A stretch of DNA of 64,000 nucleotides from Minisyncoccota bacterium (GTDB taxonomy: Bacteria > Patescibacteriota > Minisyncoccia > Phycocordibacterales > UBA9973), in contig JBAYFP010000002.1 in NCBI GenBank assembly GCA_041667145.1, positions 14,436 to 78,435 on the forward strand, given 5' to 3'. The notes beneath the pieces were generated by a model, which had not been told where the DNA came from, did no database searches, and was given only the letters and a program-made list of their open reading frames with translations. Below, in pieces: positions 20,272-47,290 of the stretch. Both the position numbers and the translations under genes were made by a program. Position 1 is the stretch's first letter, and each line of letters starts with the position of its first letter.

Positions 20272-20419
20272 AAAAATGCCCTTTATATTATATTTAAAAA
20301 ATTAATTTTAATTGCGAGAACTATTACAACCTATATTGTATATAATACAATTGACTCTGTCAACTTTTTTCTGTCCTTTTATATCAACAAAATAAAGTCC
20401 ATCTGGGTTTGTTCACCTC

Positions 20420-20435
20420 TAGGCCTTGCCTAGCT
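20420..20435. repeat. REP-like GC-rich hairpin, left copy flanking the transposase (taggccttgcctagct)
   Basis: Exact reverse complement of the right copy at 21123-21138. Its internal stem is ctagg/cctag. It contains the transposase stop codon. Confidence 0.8.
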
Positions 20436-21096
20436 AAATTTCATTCTTATAGTTTAACCATTCAAAAATCTCACTTAAAAAATCTCTCCCTGTTGGGAAA
20501 TATTTCGGAAATGATTTTGTATTTAATATTTTATTTTGTATTCTTTGTATCCCTATATAATCTAAATAACTCGAGTAAAGATAATCATATAAATATCTTT
20601 CAGATTCTTTTCTGTTTTTAATCCCCTTTTCCTTCCAATCCTTTTGTATAAGTTTCATTGGATTCAAATGAATATAAGAAAACATATATTTAAGATATTT
20701 ATCTTTGTCTATATGCTGTGATTTAAATTTGCCTTCAAATAAGCTACCCGTTCTTTTATATTTTTTATTAAAATACATCGAATAAGAAGTACTCAATTTC
20801 TGCATAAAATTACTTATATTATTGTCTCCCGATTGTGTTATTAATAAATGAAAGTGATTAGACATTAAACAATACGCACCAATATAAACAATCGGTTCTT
20901 CTTGTTCAATCTCATATAAAGTTTGACCCTTATTTAAATTACTAACTTTCAAACTACCCGTTTGGTTACAAGCATATAAAAGACTTATAAAACGCAAATA
21001 GTCCTCTTCGTCAAGAAAGATTTTCTGCTTACTATTTCCTCTATTGTAAATGTGATAATACTCACCTGAGACTAAACTTACTTTTCGTATAGACAT
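20434..21096 (-). mobile_element. IS200-like / REP-associated tyrosine transposase (RAYT, COG1943-type HUH Y1 transposase)
   Basis: YHIYNRGNSKQKIF..DYLRF..LL, the AYCLMSNHFHLL HUH motif, and LSTSYSMYFNKKYKRTGSLFEGKFKSQHIDKDKYLKYMFSYIHLNP. The gene is flanked by perfectly inverted 16-nt GC-rich repeats. Confidence 0.8.
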
Positions 21097-21122
21097 AAAT
21101 ATATAATACCAAAATACTATTC

Positions 21123-21140
21123 AGCTAGGCAAGGCCTAGA
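21123..21140. repeat. REP-like GC-rich hairpin, right copy (agctaggcaaggcctaga)
   Basis: Inverted copy of 20420-20435. It overlaps the 3' end of the patatin-like gene. Confidence 0.8.
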
Positions 21141-22009
21141 CGGAGGTTTCACATCTTTTAAAAAAATCTTCGAGCTCTGTATGATTAATCGTATCTTCAT
21201 ATCCTTGATTTATTGTTTTTTTAAGCAAGTTTACTTTTAAACCTATTCTACCAATCGGTAATTCTTTCTTAGGTTGTATAATTACAACATTATTTCGTTT
21301 TTTATATTCAAGTATCTCTTTTCTATCTTTCTCATAATTTTTAGGCATATCCCAAATTGCTTTTTTAACAAGTTCAGACTCATTTCTTATCCATAGAAAT
21401 TCAAGTATCTTCCTTAAAAAGATATATTTAGGAAGCTCTTTTGCTGGTCTCGTTAATATCACTAGTAAATTTTTAGGTTTTAATTCTAATGTTTTTCTGA
21501 CACCAAAATTTTCTGTTACTGTCCCATCAACATACTCAATTATTTAATTTAACTCTTTTACCAAAAAAATACGGCACAGCACAAGCCGCTCTGATAATTT
21601 CATAAGGATCTTCCGATTCGTGGTTTGTAAAATAAATTCCCTTACAATCAGAATACCTTAAAAGAGGTATATAAAGTTCAGTTTTTGAAGATTTTAGAGA
21701 ATTTATATCAAGCGGAAATTTCTTTTTGAGGACTGTGTCAACTAAAAAATCTATGTCCATTATTGGACCTCTTAGAAAAAAATTTCTTATTTTTATAAAT
21801 TCCCCTGATTTTACCAACTCAATCCATATTTTTTCAATATAATCATATTGTTTCGTTATGAAATAGGCAAAAGTACTCCCTGCCCCAGAAGATCCAACAA
21901 TCAAATCTACTTCATCTAAAGAATATTTTTCTCTCAGTCCCTTTATAACTCCCACACTATAAGCTGATTTTAAACCACCGCCTTGGGCAGTTATACAAAT
22001 ATTTTTCAT
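21136..22009 (-). pseudogene. patatin-like phospholipase, disrupted by a frameshift around 21536-21546 (two ORFs: 22009-21536 and 21462-21136)
   Basis: The N-terminal ORF has GGGLKSAYSVGVIKGLREKY (the GGGxK/R oxyanion motif) and IVGSSGAGS (a degenerate GxSxG). The downstream ORF, extended upstream in another frame, begins IEYVDGTVTENFGV, which is the patatin Asp (DG) motif. The combined ~290 aa matches patatin length. Confidence 0.6.
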
Positions 22010-22040
22010 TATTATTTTATAATATTATATTTTTATGCTT

Positions 22041-22760
22041 TTATCTACTAAATAATCTTTCAGCTAGGCAAGGTCTAGATGAATTTTTCCATTCCTCTAT
22101 CTTTTTATGATTCCCAGACAGTAATACTTTTGGAACTTTGTAATTTTTGTTTTTATATTTTAAAATTTCTGGACGAGTATAAACTTCGCTTGAAGATATT
22201 CTTTCTTCTTCTCGTGAATCGAAATTACCAAGTACACCTTCTATTTGACGAGAAATGCAGTCTACTAAAATCATGGCTGGGATTTCTCCACCAGTCAAAA
22301 CATAATCTCCTATTGATAATTTTTTGGTCTTTAATATTTTATCAACTCTTGCATCTATCCCCTCATATCTTCCACAAATCAAAATAATATCAGTATATTT
22401 TTTAGAAATTAATTTGGCATAAGTAGTTGTGAATTTTTCTGCACTAGGAATGAAATTAATTATTAAAATTTTTTTATTCCCCTCTTGAGGGGTGGCTCGC
22501 TTACGAGACGGGGTGGATATTTTTTTTACTACTGTTCTCACTGTTTCAAGCAGTGGCTCGGCTCTCATGACCATCCCCGGACCTCCACCATAGGGCTTAT
22601 CATCTACTGGTTTATAGTTAGTTTTATTTCCCTTAATAAAATCTCTGGGATTATAAAACTTCACAGAAATAAGCTTGTTTTTTATTGCCCGACCAATAAT
22701 AGACTCACTCAAATATGAATCAAATATGTCTGGGAAAATTGTAATTATATGAAAACGCAT
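22041..22760 (-). CDS. trmD: tRNA (guanine37-N1)-methyltransferase TrmD
   Basis: MRFHIITIFPDIF... and the SPOUT-knot region ILICGRYEGIDARV. The ORF track starts at 22781 with TTG; I take the ATG at 22758-22760. It contains a GC-rich insertion at 22474-22520. Confidence 0.85.
   Translation of the reverse strand: MRFHIITIFPDIFDSYLSESIIGRAIKNKLISVKFYNPRDFIKGNKTNYKPVDDKPYGGGPGMVMRAEPLLETVRTVVKKISTPSRKRATPQEGNKKILIINFIPSAEKFTTTYAKLISKKYTDIILICGRYEGIDARVDKILKTKKLSIGDYVLTGGEIPAMILVDCISRQIEGVLGNFDSREEERISSSEVYTRPEILKYKNKNYKVPKVLLSGNHKKIEEWKNSSRPCLAERLFSR
22062..22079. repeat. REP-like hairpin, third copy (agctaggcaaggtctaga, 1 mismatch)
   Basis: Same orientation as the copy at 21123. It lies inside the 3' end of the trmD ORF (encoding ...RPCLAE...). 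Confidence 0.75.
22474..22520. repeat. GC-rich hairpin element inside trmD (ttattcccctcttgaggggtg-N15-ggggtggatat); a paralogous copy lies in pheT
   Basis: Stem cccctc/gagggg plus the inner hairpin ctcg-ctta-cgag. It encodes STPSRKRATPQEGNKK in frame. It shares 22+11 identical nt with 37859-37901. Confidence 0.75.
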
Positions 22761-22784
22761 ATACAAAACATCATAATACAAAAA

Positions 22785-22815
22785 GAGCCCCGACGCACGT
22801 CGGGGCTCTTTTTAA
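22785..22815 (-). terminator. bidirectional intrinsic terminator hairpin (gagccccgacg-ca-cgtcggggctc) flanked by A5/T5 runs
   Basis: Perfect 11-bp GC-rich stem followed by tttttaa. It sits between the KH-protein gene and trmD. Confidence 0.7.
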
Positions 22816-37569: not shown

Positions 37570-39441
37570 CTATCTTACTTGCCAATCATTTTTCTCCTTG
37601 ATTTTATTGGTTATTTTAGTCATAATTTCGTTTATTTCATCGTCAGTAAGAGTCCTTTCATAAGATTGGAAAACTAGCCTAAAAGCATACGAAGTCTTAC
37701 TATCTTTAGTGAAAGAATCAAAAAGATATGGCTCCTTAATTAAAAGTTCTGTACCATTTTCTATAAGTATCTTCTTCAATTCTTTCACATTCCCTCCTTC
37801 CGGCATCCAGACAGCAATATCACGAGAAATAAAAGGATAAATTGACCAAGGAAGAAATTTATTCCCCTCTTGAGGGGTGACGCCTGCGCCGGGGTGGATA
37901 TATTTTCCACCTCCCCCTAAAGGGTACTCCTCAAGAAGAGAATCTTTACAAAATTCGTTGAGTGTCATTTCTTTTATTTCTTTTTTATCTCCATAAGCGA
38001 CATGCATTTCTTCCCCACTTTTCTTGAACACAGTACCTATTTCAAAAATCTTTATTTCTTTCATTTCAAGAAGTGGTAAATTGATCTGATTTAATTTCAA
38101 GCTTTCTTTTAATCCATCAGTCAGATTTGTTCTTAAAAACTTTTTATCCGACGCAGAAGCCAATACTTCCACTTCCCCTTTATCTTTAAACGAGTAAGTC
38201 ATAACTTCACTATACCCGCTATTTAAAAGCTTACTACGTGTAAAAATAATTTCTGAAAATATTTCATTCATTTTTGTTTTAGTTTTTATTTCAGGCATTT
38301 TTTCTTTAAGCTTGTCATACCCTAAAATTCGAATCACTTCTTCAGTCAAATCATGAGGACCTGTTATATCAATTCTAAAAAAAGGAACTTCAATCTCAAA
38401 TTCGTCTCCTTTCTTTAAATATTTAAAATTTAATTTTTTCCATACATCTTCTATCTCTTTTTGAGAAAAATCAGAACCCAAATGTTTATTTATATAATTT
38501 ACAGAAACAAAAACCTTTTTTTGTTCAACTTTTTTTGGATAAATATCTATGATAGATTCTGCTTCCCCTCCAGCTAATTCAAAAACCAAATCAGTAATGG
38601 CATTCATAGCCATGGTGCAAAGTTCTGGGGTAATTTCATTTTCATATCTCTTCACAGCATCAGTTAAAATATTTATTTTCTTGGAAGTTTTTCTTGTAGA
38701 AGTTTTATCAAAATTTGCCACTTCTATAACTAGATTTTTTGTCTTATCGTCAACCTCAGCCTTTATTCCTCCTTTTATCCCCGCAATGGCTAAAGGAGTT
38801 TTTTCATCCGCAATTACCAAAATCGATTCATCTAAAATGATCTCTTTTTTATCAAGGGTAGTGAGTTTTTCTCCAACTTTTCCATTTCTTACAATTATTT
38901 TTGCACTTTCTAATTTATCTAAATCAAAACAATGAATCGGTTGACCCAAATCAAACATTACAAAATTGGCAGCATCTACAATATTATTTATTGATTTTTG
39001 TCCTATCGCTTCTAATTTTTCCCTTAGCCAATCTGGGCTTTTACTAATTTTTATATTTCTAACAATTCGGCCCATATAACGAAGACACTTATCTGACTGA
39101 ATTTCAATTTTTAAATCTGGGCCAAAATGGCTTTTTGAACGGTCTGGTTGAGCCTGTTCTTTTAAAGAATCCTGCACAGGCGACCCGAGGACCTGAAAAA
39201 AGCCATTTGGCGAGGATATCTTTAAATTAAAAATAGCAGAAATTTCTTTAGCTATCCCGAAATGAGAAAGGCAATCGTGTGCTCTATCTGGAAGAATTTT
39301 AATATCAAAAATAACGTCATCCCCAATCTTTACAATTTCTTCTACTTCAAAAGAGTGAAAAATAATACCCTCAGATAATTTCTCTGGTTCAGGTAATTTT
39401 TCTTTGAAATAATTTTGTAACCAATTATAACTAACTTTCAT
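37570..39441 (-). CDS. pheT: phenylalanyl-tRNA synthetase beta subunit (short form)
   Basis: B3/B4 and B5 domain similarity, adjacent to pheS. It is 623 aa. It contains GC-rich insertions at 37859-37901 and 39171-39204. Confidence 0.8.
   Translation of the reverse strand: MKVSYNWLQNYFKEKLPEPEKLSEGIIFHSFEVEEIVKIGDDVIFDIKILPDRAHDCLSHFGIAKEISAIFNLKISSPNGFFQVLGSPVQDSLKEQAQPDRSKSHFGPDLKIEIQSDKCLRYMGRIVRNIKISKSPDWLREKLEAIGQKSINNIVDAANFVMFDLGQPIHCFDLDKLESAKIIVRNGKVGEKLTTLDKKEIILDESILVIADEKTPLAIAGIKGGIKAEVDDKTKNLVIEVANFDKTSTRKTSKKINILTDAVKRYENEITPELCTMAMNAITDLVFELAGGEAESIIDIYPKKVEQKKVFVSVNYINKHLGSDFSQKEIEDVWKKLNFKYLKKGDEFEIEVPFFRIDITGPHDLTEEVIRILGYDKLKEKMPEIKTKTKMNEIFSEIIFTRSKLLNSGYSEVMTYSFKDKGEVEVLASASDKKFLRTNLTDGLKESLKLNQINLPLLEMKEIKIFEIGTVFKKSGEEMHVAYGDKKEIKEMTLNEFCKDSLLEEYPLGGGGKYIHPGAGVTPQEGNKFLPWSIYPFISRDIAVWMPEGGNVKELKKILIENGTELLIKEPYLFDSFTKDSKTSYAFRLVFQSYERTLTDDEINEIMTKITNKIKEKNDWQVR
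37859..37901. repeat. GC-rich hairpin element inside pheT (tttattcccctcttgaggggtg-N11-ggggtggatat)
   Basis: Same flanks as the trmD copy with a different-length core. It encodes YIHPGAGVTPQEGNK; part of it is read in a different frame than in trmD. Confidence 0.75.
39171..39204. repeat. GC-rich element inside pheT sharing ccgaggacctgaa with the smc element
   Basis: cctgcacaggcgacccgaggacctgaaaaaagcc; an island of ~65% GC inside an AT-rich gene. Confidence 0.6.

Positions 39442-44526: not shown

Positions 44527-47290
<2,764 letters not shown>

What the first reader, a model, noticed from the sequence alone, without database searches (positions are those of the whole stretch)
20420..22079. RAYT-type HUH transposase flanked by inverted REP hairpins, with a third REP and a REP-like core inside ligA; a candidate mobiliser for the intragenic elements
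The 220-aa IS200-like/COG1943 transposase (HFHLL HUH motif) is bracketed by perfectly inverted 16-nt copies of taggccttgcctagct at 20420-20435 and 21123-21138, a REPIN-like doublet. A third copy (1 mismatch) lies at 22062-22079. The ligA insertion at 44898-44952 ends with the same cagctaggcaa core. RAYT/REP systems are classically extragenic in Proteobacteria. Here the associated hairpins are GC-rich islands in an AT-rich genome and apparently invade coding sequence. All three local REP copies overlap the 3' ends or stop codons of ORFs.
Basis: partly seen in the sequence, partly recalled or inferred. Interest (0 to 1): 0.8.

Follow-up and report, generated by a model that had tools for sequence, protein, structure and literature searches.

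The report
Tamed transposase gene with flanking hairpins
A conserved, single-copy relative of the REP-associated (RAYT) transposases in a tiny groundwater bacterium sits between two inverted copies of its own DNA hairpin; a few more copies lie nearby and in frame inside essential genes such as DNA ligase, making this a low-copy version of a known system, with no evidence that it moves the other palindromes found inside genes.

Summary
TAGGCCTTGCCTAGCT occurs at 20420-35 (+), 21123-38 (-) and, with one mismatch, 22062-77 (-). The ligA element at 44896-44952 carries the same hairpin foot.

It belongs to a very large Paceibacteria (Patescibacteria) family. In 61 of 79 distinct homologous genes, a hairpin with the apex AGG-YCTTG-CCT and a covarying stem brackets the gene. 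The upstream copy supplies the -35 box of a leaderless promoter.

In the closest relatives the gene sits at the same place, trmD-RAYT-rpoB. It is therefore inherited and domesticated, not a recent insertion.

The hairpin is low-copy: 1-2 exact copies per species genome and roughly 1 per 75 kb away from the gene. Several dispersed copies are in frame inside housekeeping genes.

The ligA copy is old. Between lineages it changes stem type by compensatory, frame-preserving changes. In this window its loop is split by an unrelated, separately dispersed 36-nt palindrome.

Nothing supports the idea that this enzyme mobilises the other intragenic palindromes. Verdict: a real, new low-copy variant of the RAYT/REP ("REPtron") kind.

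The parts
20418..20437 (+). Hairpin copy 1, downstream of the RAYT gene: TCTAGGCCTTGCCTAGCTAA, stem 20419-24 / 20428-33. It overlaps the RAYT stop codon (20434-36).
20434..21096 (-). RAYT-like Y1 HUH gene, 220 aa. H81-F-H83 and Y141 (SYIHLNP) are invariant in the family. It carries a conserved C-terminal extension of about 70 aa.
21103..21132 (-). Promoter-like site of the RAYT gene. The -35 TTGCCT (21132-27) lies inside hairpin copy 2, followed by an 18-nt spacer and TG-TATTAT (21108-03) 6 nt before the ATG. This predicts a leaderless mRNA.
   Evidence: the same geometry is found in 57 of 79 homologous loci
21122..21140 (+). Hairpin copy 2, upstream of the RAYT gene: CAGCTAGGCAAGGCCTAGA, inverted relative to copy 1. 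It holds the stop codon of the patatin C-terminal ORF.
   Evidence: (I2)
21136..22009 (-). Patatin-like gene split by a frameshift into two ORFs (21536-22009 Patatin; 21136-21462 DUF6363). It lies between hairpin copies 3 and 2 and is absent from this position in relatives.
22061..22079 (+). Hairpin copy 3: CAGCTAGGCAAGGTCTAGA, with a G-to-A change in the stem. It lies in the last 12 codons of trmD and is orthologous to the upstream hairpin at the trmD end in relatives. It forms a 44-nt direct repeat (75%) with copy 2.
   Evidence: (D13)
44896..44952 (-). In-frame hairpin of the same family inside ligA: TCAGCTAGGCAA | 36 nt | GGCCTAGAT, encoding [19 protein letters not shown].
44905..44940 (-). 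Separate 36-nt palindromic element, CCTGCCCGCAATGCTTCGCATAGCGATGCAGGCGGG, inserted at AA|G of the ligA hairpin loop. This corresponds to C|T on the complementary (top) strand.

Best explanation
The ORF at 20434-21096 encodes an intact single-strand-DNA nuclease/strand-transferase of the Y1 HUH class, of the RAYT (TnpA-REP) kind. The 18-20-nt repeats are its cognate hairpin. Gene plus two inverted hairpins form one conserved unit, a 'REPtron', found throughout Paceibacteria.

Shown:
- The protein has the HUH and Tyr residues, and its fold is closest to E. coli RAYT.
- The hairpin apex AGG-YCTTG-CCT is conserved, while the outer stem varies by compensatory changes.
- The upstream hairpin lies at a fixed distance from the ATG and contains a -35-like hexamer. 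A -10 box sits 6 nt before the ATG.
- In the close clade the unit sits at the same chromosomal site, and the protein is as conserved as neighbouring housekeeping genes.
- A few extra hairpins exist. Most bound one accessory gene next to the unit, as with patatin here. Others are scattered at about 1 per 75 kb, several of them in frame in housekeeping genes.
- The ligA copy is one of these. It is old, and in this window its loop is split by an unrelated 36-nt palindrome.

Inferred:
- The protein binds the folded 'top' strand (AGGYCTTGCCT, whose Y-G closing pair tolerates T.G).
- It cuts and rejoins at a C|T, probably the loop C|T. This would generate the local duplications, and binding its own promoter hairpin would repress its own transcription.
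- It is a domesticated, low-activity enzyme rather than a spreading transposon.
For: Protein:
- Pfam Y1_Tnp scores 38.6 bits against a cut-off of 23.
- H81, H83, Y141 and N145 are invariant in 30 homologues of 65-83% identity.
- The AF2 model has pLDDT 81.

Family: more than 7900 homologues, with source names from Paceibacterota, Nomurabacteria and Patescibacteria.

Flanking hairpins:
- They are present in relatives with identical sequence.
- 64 of 79 genes have one upstream, 69 of 79 downstream and 61 of 79 both. Shuffled flanks give 0 of 1580.
- The distance from apex to ATG is 28-31 nt in 50 of 60.

Covariation: in the outer stem, 78% of pairs are Watson-Crick, against 19-27% when the partner is slid. 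Up to four pair types occur per position. The closing pair is T.G in 68% and C-G in 32%.

Promoter: TTGCCT-18-TGnTATTAT ends 6 nt before the ATG, and the same geometry is found in 57 of 79 loci.

Inheritance: the order KH-trmD-hairpin-RAYT-hairpin-rpoB is seen in the window, L003, L010, L011, L023 and L101. Identities there are RAYT 73-84%, trmD 66-79% and rpoB N-terminus 68-88%.

Dispersed copies: the apex motif gives 163 hits in 752 kb, 138 of them at RAYT flanks and 25 elsewhere. About 0.2 would be expected by composition (my estimate). Twelve lie 165-970 nt from the gene.

Intragenic copies: pheT, tgt, rnhB and a reverse transcriptase. In ligA there are three stem types, each identical to a type that flanks RAYTs elsewhere. 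The type matches in the two genomes where both can be seen.

Loop as a breakage site: 14 half-hairpin tandem duplications. Of the twelve 5'-half duplications, 7 have junctions compatible with loop C|T (and my reading). The 36-nt element is inserted exactly at that C|T in ligA of two lineages.

Published parallels: E. coli TnpA-REP cuts between C and T at a TGCC|TGAT site beside the inverted REP, and cuts sites in the linkers (PMC3333891). CT is described as the common cleavage dinucleotide, and loop bases are essential for the small-REP group (PMC8266576).
Against: - No activity has been shown. The cleavage site, strand choice and autoregulation are all inferences.
- The NCBIfam RAYT equivalog model scores 47 bits, below its cut-off of 80. 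Sequence searches against PDB do not reach 4ER8.
- The hairpin is not amplified. The exact 18-mer occurs 1-2 times per species genome.
- There is no conserved GTAG-type tag 5' of the stem.
- The window's own copies have only a 6-bp stem, with z about -2.
- Distant copies within one genome usually have different outer stems from the flanking copies. Homogenisation is therefore not general.
- The half-hairpin duplications always lie on the side away from the gene. Their polarity could reflect selection rather than strand-specific cutting, and 5 of the 12 junctions do not fit C|T.
- The conserved apex upstream could be explained partly by its promoter role.
Confidence: 0.8

Rival explanations
1. 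The hairpins are purely cis-regulatory parts of this one gene: a promoter/operator upstream and an mRNA 3' end or terminator downstream. The protein no longer moves DNA, and the few other copies are relics of local duplication.
For: - The -35 box lies in the upstream hairpin at a fixed distance from the ATG.
- The downstream hairpin overlaps the stop codon.
- Copy number is very low.
- Most extra copies lie within 1 kb of the gene.
Against: - Copies with the same 11-nt apex but different stems lie 5-10 kb away and in frame inside pheT, tgt, rnhB and ligA, where they cannot serve this gene.
- The catalytic residues are invariant across the 30 aligned homologues of 65-83% identity, and the gene stays intact down to 58%, which argues for retained catalysis.
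- No T-run follows the downstream hairpins, apart from a chance one at copy 3.
Confidence: 0.12
2. It is an autonomous IS200/IS605-type insertion sequence that recently inserted between trmD and rpoB.
For: - It is a Y1 transposase fold with hairpins at both ends.
- In more distant genomes the gene is in other contexts, and the trmD-rpoB spacer holds other genes.
Against: - It sits at the same site, with the same hairpins, in several species whose housekeeping genes have diverged 12-35%.
- There is one copy in the window.
- The ends are inverted copies of one hairpin, not two different same-strand hairpins.
- There is no tnpB.
- The protein is as conserved as rpoB and KhpA and more conserved than trmD.
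Confidence: 0.03
3. One reading: this enzyme is the mobiliser of the many G+C-rich palindromes inserted in frame in ligA, pheT, trmD and other genes.
For: - It is the only HUH gene seen in the window.
- One such palindrome (36 nt) sits exactly in the loop C|T of the ligA hairpin in two lineages.
- HUH enzymes act on folded single strands.
Against: - None of the other palindromes carries the conserved apex AGGYCTTGCCT. In characterised RAYTs, recognition is specific to the cognate hairpin (PMC8266576).
- The 36-nt element occurs in other genes without any hairpin nearby, including a 36/36 identical copy in a genome whose RAYT is only 67% identical.
- The palindrome families share no sequence with each other.
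Confidence: 0.07

Closest known systems
E. coli REPtron: TnpA-REP (RAYT, PDB 4ER8) with flanking REP/BIME (Ton-Hoang 2012, PMC3333891; Messing 2012, PMC3479197)
   Same: - The gene is bracketed by inverted copies of a short G+C-rich hairpin.
- It is single-copy and inherited vertically.
- An unpaired or mismatched feature (here the T.G closing pair and the loop) marks one strand.
   Different: - Only 12% sequence identity, and below the NCBIfam RAYT threshold.
- 220 aa against 165 aa, with a conserved extra C-terminal region of about 70 aa.
- No GTAG tag 5' of the stem; conservation lies in the apex instead.
- A handful of copies rather than hundreds.
- No BIME arrays.
- Several copies are inside genes.
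- The promoter is built into the upstream hairpin.
Low-copy RAYT Groups 1 and 4 of Bertels, Gallie & Rainey 2017 (PMC5581495)
   Same: These are housekeeping-like, about one copy per replicon. Their flanking 16-mers are only modestly repeated (12-14 occurrences, against 57-140 for Groups 2 and 3).
   Different: Patescibacteria were not in that survey, which covered complete genomes only. That study reports no intragenic copies or conserved apex.
Group 3 small-REP RAYTs (Stenotrophomonas, Marinomonas; Corneloup 2021, PMC8266576)
   Same: Small hairpins in which specific loop bases are indispensable for recognition. The stem co-evolves with the enzyme, and cleavage occurs at CT (or CA).
   Different: Those REPs keep a GTAG motif and are high-copy and extragenic. 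Their cleavage sites lie beside the hairpin, not in the loop as inferred here.
IS200/IS605 insertion sequences (IS608, ISDra2)
   Same: Y1 HUH transposase acting on folded single-stranded hairpins, strand-specifically.
   Different: IS ends are two different hairpins on the same strand. The elements are multi-copy and mobile, often carry tnpB, and their transposases are dimers of about 130-150 aa.
Rickettsia palindromic elements (my own knowledge: Ogata et al. 2000, Science)
   Same: Palindromic repeats that persist in frame inside essential protein-coding genes of a small, A+T-rich genome.
   Different: RPEs are 100-150 nt and have no known dedicated enzyme. Here the in-frame unit is 18-24 nt and is the cognate site of a neighbouring HUH gene.

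Membership tests
RAYT / TnpA-REP | Y1 HUH fold with an HUH metal-binding motif and one catalytic Tyr | tested here: met
   - HFH at residues 81-83 and Y141 in SYIHLNP are invariant.
- Pfam Y1_Tnp scores 38.6 bits against a cut-off of 23.
- The equivalence of Y141 to the catalytic Tyr rests on motif position, not on a residue-level superposition.
RAYT / TnpA-REP | Gene flanked by its cognate palindromes in inverted orientation | tested here: met
   - Window copies 1 and 2.
- 61 of 79 distinct homologous genes have hairpins on both sides.
- 41 of 55 scored pairs are inverted; 8 are direct, 2+2 are other arrangements and 2 were unclassified.
RAYT / TnpA-REP | About one copy per genome, inherited vertically | tested here: inconclusive
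   - One copy in 64 kb.
- Same site in the clade with at least 73% identity.
- No complete genome was available.
- Some contigs carry a second, divergent paralogue with a different hairpin.
RAYT / TnpA-REP | Flanking 16-mers strongly over-represented genome-wide (Bertels 2017, Groups 2/3) | tested here: not met
   - The exact 18-mer occurs 1-2 times per species genome in 185,579 species.
- There are three local copies plus the split ligA copy in 64 kb.
- Away from the gene there is about 1 apex motif per 75 kb.
RAYT / TnpA-REP | Reaches the curated NCBIfam equivalog score (NF047646) | tested here: not met
   47.4 bits against a cut-off of 80, E 1.8e-12.
Classical REP | 20-40 nt G+C-rich imperfect palindrome able to fold as a single strand | tested here: met
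   - In the family the stem is 10-13 bp with a 3-nt loop and shows covariation.
- In the window the stem is only 6 bp, at -4.5 kcal/mol.
Classical REP | Conserved GTAG or CGTC tetranucleotide at one end | tested here: not met
   Positions outside the stem are unconserved and A/T-rich. Conservation lies in the apex.
Classical REP | High copy number and extragenic location | tested here: not met
   Low copy number. In-frame copies occur in ligA, pheT, tgt, rnhB, a reverse transcriptase and the trmD tail.
REPIN | Two inverted REPs separated by a short spacer that replicate together as a unit | tested here: not met
   The inverted pair in the window is separated by the whole gene (687 nt). Only one close inverted doublet was seen in 752 kb (L063:429/449).
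IS200/IS605 | Distinct left and right subterminal hairpins on one strand; multi-copy; often with tnpB | tested here: not met
   The same hairpin is inverted at both ends, there is no tnpB, and the site is conserved.
RAYT / TnpA-REP | Binds and cleaves the cognate single-stranded REP | not testable with these tools
   Needs biochemistry. The only indirect signs are loop-centred duplications and one insertion.

The most novel reading that the evidence does not exclude
The enzyme is still active at a low level and nicks the loop C|T of its hairpin. This one activity would explain several observations:
- the half-hairpin tandem duplications;
- the recurrent capture of single accessory genes between hairpins next to the gene (patatin here);
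- the long-term maintenance and stem-type switching of an in-frame hairpin inside essential genes such as ligA;
- the use of the nicked loop as an entry point for other palindromic mini-elements.

The unit would then be a self-regulated, hairpin-specific recombination module shaping coding sequences in ultra-small genomes.
Probability: 0.25. Interest if true: 0.75.

Novelty: new variant of a known kind. Interest (0 to 1): 0.5.

Why it matters
RAYT/REP systems have been studied almost only in Proteobacteria, as high-copy extragenic repeats, and their cellular role is still unknown.

Here a very large Patescibacteria family shows the system in minimal form: one gene, two hairpins and a handful of extra copies. 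Three features make it tractable:
- The recognition element is clear: a conserved 11-nt apex on a covarying stem.
- The promoter is built into the hairpin.
- Copies are tolerated in frame inside essential genes.

This gives a simple substrate for biochemistry. It also offers a natural test of whether domesticated HUH enzymes regulate themselves through their own hairpin, and an example of hairpin repeats co-evolving with protein-coding sequence.

The finding also separates this system from the other, more numerous in-frame palindromes of these genomes, whose mobiliser remains unknown.

Tried and rejected
- **Sequence searches against PDB.** The single sequence and a 30-sequence profile did not reach E. 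coli RAYT. The profile gave only a weak HUH-motif alignment to ISDra2 TnpA (E 0.7). Fold comparison was needed.
- **Rfam.** Nothing matched the hairpins; the only hits were terminator-like matches near 22780.
- **Genome-wide amplification.** Rejected by the genome-contig scan: 10 loci in all, 7 of them Patescibacteria.
- **Literature.** No paper in the library links RAYT or REP to Patescibacteria, Parcubacteria or CPR.
- **Concordance test in a genome with a different stem type.** Only two genomes, both of the same type, could be compared.
- **General within-genome homogenisation.** Rejected, because distant copies usually have other stems.
- **Antisense promoter from the downstream hairpin.** Copy 1 has TTGCCT-16-TATAGT, but the spacing is not conserved in relatives (12 nt in L003), so I dropped it.
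- **The 36-nt ligA insert as part of the hairpin family.** Rejected after identical or near-identical copies turned up in other genes without a hairpin.
- **AlphaFold-database fold search.** The library was unavailable.
Full report
**1. The observation**

The 16-mer TAGGCCTTGCCTAGCT is at 20420-20435 (+) and 21123-21138 (-) without mismatch, and at 22062-22077 (-) with one. No further copy appears at up to 3 mismatches. The expected count is 0.20, and no shuffle out of 100 reaches 3. The 11-mer CAGCTAGGCAA also occurs at 44941-44951 (-) inside ligA.

Read in register, the unit is TCTAGGC-CTT-GCCTAGCT(G): a 6-bp stem with a 3-nt loop. As single-stranded DNA it folds at -4.5 kcal/mol, z about -2, for the two perfect copies. 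The third copy carries a stem mutation.

The ORF 20434-21096 (-) is 220 aa with HFHLL at residues 81-85. Each of the three copies touches an ORF end: the RAYT stop, the stop of the patatin C-terminal ORF, and the last 12 codons of trmD.

**2. The protein**

Pfam assigns Y1_Tnp (38.6 bits, cut-off 23) over residues 69-143. The NCBIfam RAYT equivalog is hit at E 1.8e-12 but scores 47 bits, below its cut-off of 80.

More than 7900 homologues were found. The best 120 are 64-100% identical, and all but one of those that carry a source name come from Paceibacterota, Nomurabacteria or Patescibacteria MAGs (one is labelled 'archaeon'). The window's own protein is on record from a Candidatus Paceibacterota MAG, on a 114.8-kb contig.

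In 30 homologues, H81, H83, Y141 (in SYIHLNP) and N145 are invariant. So are many residues of a C-terminal extension of about 70 aa: W154, Y172, S176, D179, R185, F196, P197, Y199, F200 and W213.

**3. The hairpins belong to the gene**

In relatives whose protein is 73-84% identical, the same hairpin sequence lies on both sides of the gene.

A metagenome scan gave 80 further loci with 58-84% identity. Among 79 distinct genes with enough flank:
- 64 have a hairpin with apex AGG-5nt-CCT and a paired stem within 100 nt upstream;
- 69 have one at the stop codon;
- 61 have both;
- shuffled flanks give 0 of 1580.

Over 158 distinct copies, the outer stem changes from clade to clade. Examples are CAGCTAGG, CTCCGCTAGG, CTGCGTTAGG, GTGCGAGG, CCTGCAAGG and ATCGTGAGG. 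It stays 78% Watson-Crick paired, against 19-27% when the partner column is slid, with up to four pair types per position.

The copies were collected by the 11-nt apex AGG-Y-CTT-G-CCT, so its constancy within that set is by construction. Its real conservation shows, where nearly every flank carries it or a near variant, such as AGGACTTTCCT with a compensatory A-T closing pair.

The closing pair is T.G in 68% of copies. One strand therefore folds better than its complement, which is a strand asymmetry. Orientation is inverted in 41 of 55 pairs. No Rfam family matches.

**4. Promoter**

On the gene's strand, the upstream hairpin provides TTGCCT (21132-27). It is followed by 18 nt, then TG-TATTAT (21108-03), then 6 nt, then the ATG. 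The geometry TTGCCT, 16-18 nt, TAnnnT, 4-9 nt, ATG recurs in 57 of 79 loci. The apex ends 28-31 nt before the ATG in 50 of 60.

I infer a leaderless mRNA and a promoter that the protein could occlude by binding its hairpin. This is an inference only.

**5. Inheritance and mobility of the gene**

The order KhpA - trmD - hairpin - RAYT - hairpin - rpoB holds in the window and in L003, L010, L011, L023 and L101. L016 and L059 also have rpoB just downstream. In these loci RAYT is 73-84% identical, trmD 66-79% and the rpoB N-terminus 68-88%.

The gene is thus as conserved as its housekeeping neighbours and sits at a fixed site.

More distant homologues lie elsewhere. In L022 and L083 the trmD-rpoB spacer holds unrelated genes and no hairpin. 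Over long times the unit, always with its hairpins, has therefore changed place.

**6. Copy number**

A scan of one genome for each of 185,579 species with AGCTAGGCAAGGYCTAGA found only 10 loci. Seven are Patescibacteria: four are RAYT flanks and three are solitary copies.

In 752 kb of fetched sequence the apex motif occurs 163 times. Of these, 138 are at RAYT flanks and 25 elsewhere; 4 of the 25 came from loci selected by the pattern itself. Twelve lie 165-970 nt from the gene, and 8 lie more than 5 kb away with other stems.

In the window, a relaxed search finds only the two perfect copies and the split ligA copy. The mutated third copy does not meet the relaxed pattern. This is a low-copy family, comparable to the 12-14 occurrences reported for RAYT Groups 1 and 4 and unlike Groups 2 and 3 (PMC5581495).

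**7. The third copy and patatin**

In relatives, trmD ends in the upstream hairpin and RAYT follows directly. In the window a frameshifted patatin-like gene lies between them, with a hairpin on each side. The two hairpins, plus the 16 nt adjoining each on the side toward the gene it precedes, form a 44-nt direct repeat (D13). The split is identical in two independent assemblies.

The same layout, one accessory gene between the flank hairpin and an extra hairpin, recurs in L026, L027, L049, L050, L055, L072, L087 and L090. The intervening genes are unrelated: transporter-like membrane proteins, a kinase-like protein and others.

**8. Copies inside genes and the ligA element**

In-frame copies occur in:
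- pheT (L027, APRQGLGE);
- tgt (L069, GAQGLALR);
- rnhB (L072, FAIGLAYGK);
- a reverse transcriptase (L012, SARQGLD).

At the ligA site, about half of 50 orthologues are 3 aa longer and carry a hairpin-derived peptide. At the DNA level three types appear:
- L100 has TCAGCTAGGCAAGGCCTAGCTGAA;
- L099 has TCCGCTAGGCAAGACCTAGCGGAG;
- L103 has TTGCGTTAGGCAAGACCTAACGCAA.

These three stem types differ by compensatory, frame-preserving changes. Each is identical to a type that flanks RAYT genes in other loci. In the window, and on the one other contig where both can be seen (L100/L101), the ligA type and the flank type agree.

The window and L098 have, exactly between AA and G of the loop, a homologous 36-nt insert encoding [12 protein letters not shown] / PARNVTQRDSGG.

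**9. The second element is independent**

The 36-nt sequence is 36/36 identical in L050, a genome whose RAYT is 67% identical. It is 89% identical in pheS of L103, and 39-nt variants occur in L103 and L085. It is always read in the same frame, and none of these copies has hairpin halves around it.

The other in-frame palindromes are:
- ligA 46432-46482, with a 22-bp perfect stem;
- ligA 46204-46278, 45340-45420 and 45112-45147;
- trmD 22476-22520 and pheT 37861-37906.

The ligA inserts at 46432-82, 46204-78 and 45112-47 are absent from most orthologues; 45340-45420 lies in a stretch that varies in most. None of the six carries the hairpin apex, and apart from the trmD/pheT pair they share no sequence with one another. 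Characterised RAYTs are specific for their cognate hairpin (PMC8266576). I therefore find no support for this enzyme as their mobiliser.

**10. Signs of breakage in the loop**

Fourteen of 162 full hairpins have an adjacent tandem half copy. Twelve of these are the 5' arm plus 2-5 loop bases in the top orientation. By my reading of the junctions, 7 of the 12 are compatible with a break between C and T of the loop.

The 36-nt insert lies at that same C|T. E. coli TnpA-REP cuts between C and T beside the inverted REP (PMC3333891), and CT is described as the common RAYT cleavage dinucleotide (PMC8266576).

There are two caveats. The half copies always lie on the side away from the gene, so selection could explain the polarity. 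Replication errors at a hairpin tip are an alternative cause.

**11. Comparison and verdict**

The locus works like, and is laid out like, a REPtron. It fails several criteria of the classical family:
- copy number;
- a GTAG tag;
- extragenic location;
- the curated sequence threshold.

It also adds features: the C-terminal extension, a conserved apex, a promoter inside the hairpin, and in-frame copies in essential genes. I found no paper linking RAYT or REP to Patescibacteria, although automatic annotation already names some members RAYT.

I rate it a new variant of a known kind, of moderate interest.

Noticed in passing
window 44905-44940 (-); L050:18165-18200; L103:20354-20389 and ~20567; L085:~67; L098 ligA: A 36-nt palindrome, CCTGCCCGCAATGCTTCGCATAGCGATGCAGGCGGG, always read as PARNA..AGG, is inserted in frame in different genes (ligA, pheS and unknown ORFs) of different Paceibacteria genomes. 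One copy is 36/36 identical in a genome whose housekeeping genes are well diverged. Such identity suggests active copying or strong DNA-level constraint. The mobiliser is unknown.
   Followed up: partly
window 46432-46482, 46204-46278, 45340-45420, 45112-45147 (all inside ligA, - strand): Four more G+C-rich palindromes lie in frame in ligA. One has a perfect 22-bp stem (-44 kcal/mol as RNA). Three of them (46432-82, 46204-78, 45112-47) are absent from most of 49 orthologues; ligA length varies from 665 to 784 aa among close relatives.
   Followed up: partly
window 22476-22520 (trmD) and 37861-37906 (pheT): Two in-frame inserts share ATTCCCCTCTTGAGGGGTG...GGGGTGGATAT, encoding ..TPQEGN. The pheT site is the same variable site that holds a RAYT-type hairpin in L027.
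   Followed up: partly
L016, L025, L029, L038, L039, L045, L051, L057, L058, L082, L083, L096 (RAYT flanks): Tandem duplications of half a hairpin (one arm plus 2-5 loop bases) lie next to the full hairpin. Twelve of 14 are the 5' half in the top orientation, and most junctions fall in the C-T-T loop. LigA protein P0138 has DLTQDLTQ, which looks like the same event inside a gene.
   Followed up: partly
window 21136-22079; L026, L027, L049, L050, L055, L072, L087, L090: A recurrent layout places a single, unrelated accessory gene between the RAYT-flanking hairpin and one extra hairpin of the same stem type, on either side and in either orientation. Hairpin density within 1 kb of the gene is about ten times that elsewhere.
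   Followed up: partly
window 21103-21132 (-); 57 of 79 homologous loci: The -35 box TTGCCT of the RAYT promoter is part of the conserved hairpin apex. The -10 box ends 6 nt before the ATG, implying a leaderless transcript.
   Followed up: partly
L034, L047, L052, L069, L076, L088, L091, L093 (both top); L060, L070 (both bottom); L074, L097 (reversed): In about a quarter of loci the loop orientation of one flank hairpin is flipped. The two copies are then direct, or inverted the other way, while the stems stay palindromic.
   Followed up: no
L103:5743-6423; L072:3082-3822; L089:10293-10961; L043:17030-17707: Divergent paralogous Y1 genes (41-54% identity) are each flanked by their own, different hairpin, for example TAGCAAGAACCGTTCTTGCTA or CAGATAGAGCCTTAGACTCTATCT. 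Several enzyme/hairpin pairs therefore coexist in this lineage.
   Followed up: partly
window 21136-21462 and 21536-22009 (-): The patatin-like phospholipase gene is split by a frameshift into Patatin and DUF6363 ORFs. The split is identical in two other assemblies (L001, L002), so it is not an assembly error.
   Followed up: partly
window 22779-22815: A perfect G+C-rich palindrome flanked by A- and T-runs, CAAAAAGAGCCCCGACGCACGTCGGGGCTCTTTTTAA, lies between the KhpA-like gene and trmD. It looks like a two-way terminator and accounts for all the weak Rfam sRNA hits.
   Followed up: no
window, whole: CTAG is under-represented: 122 observed against about 198 expected from base composition. Yet it is part of the stem of most hairpins of this family.
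   Followed up: no
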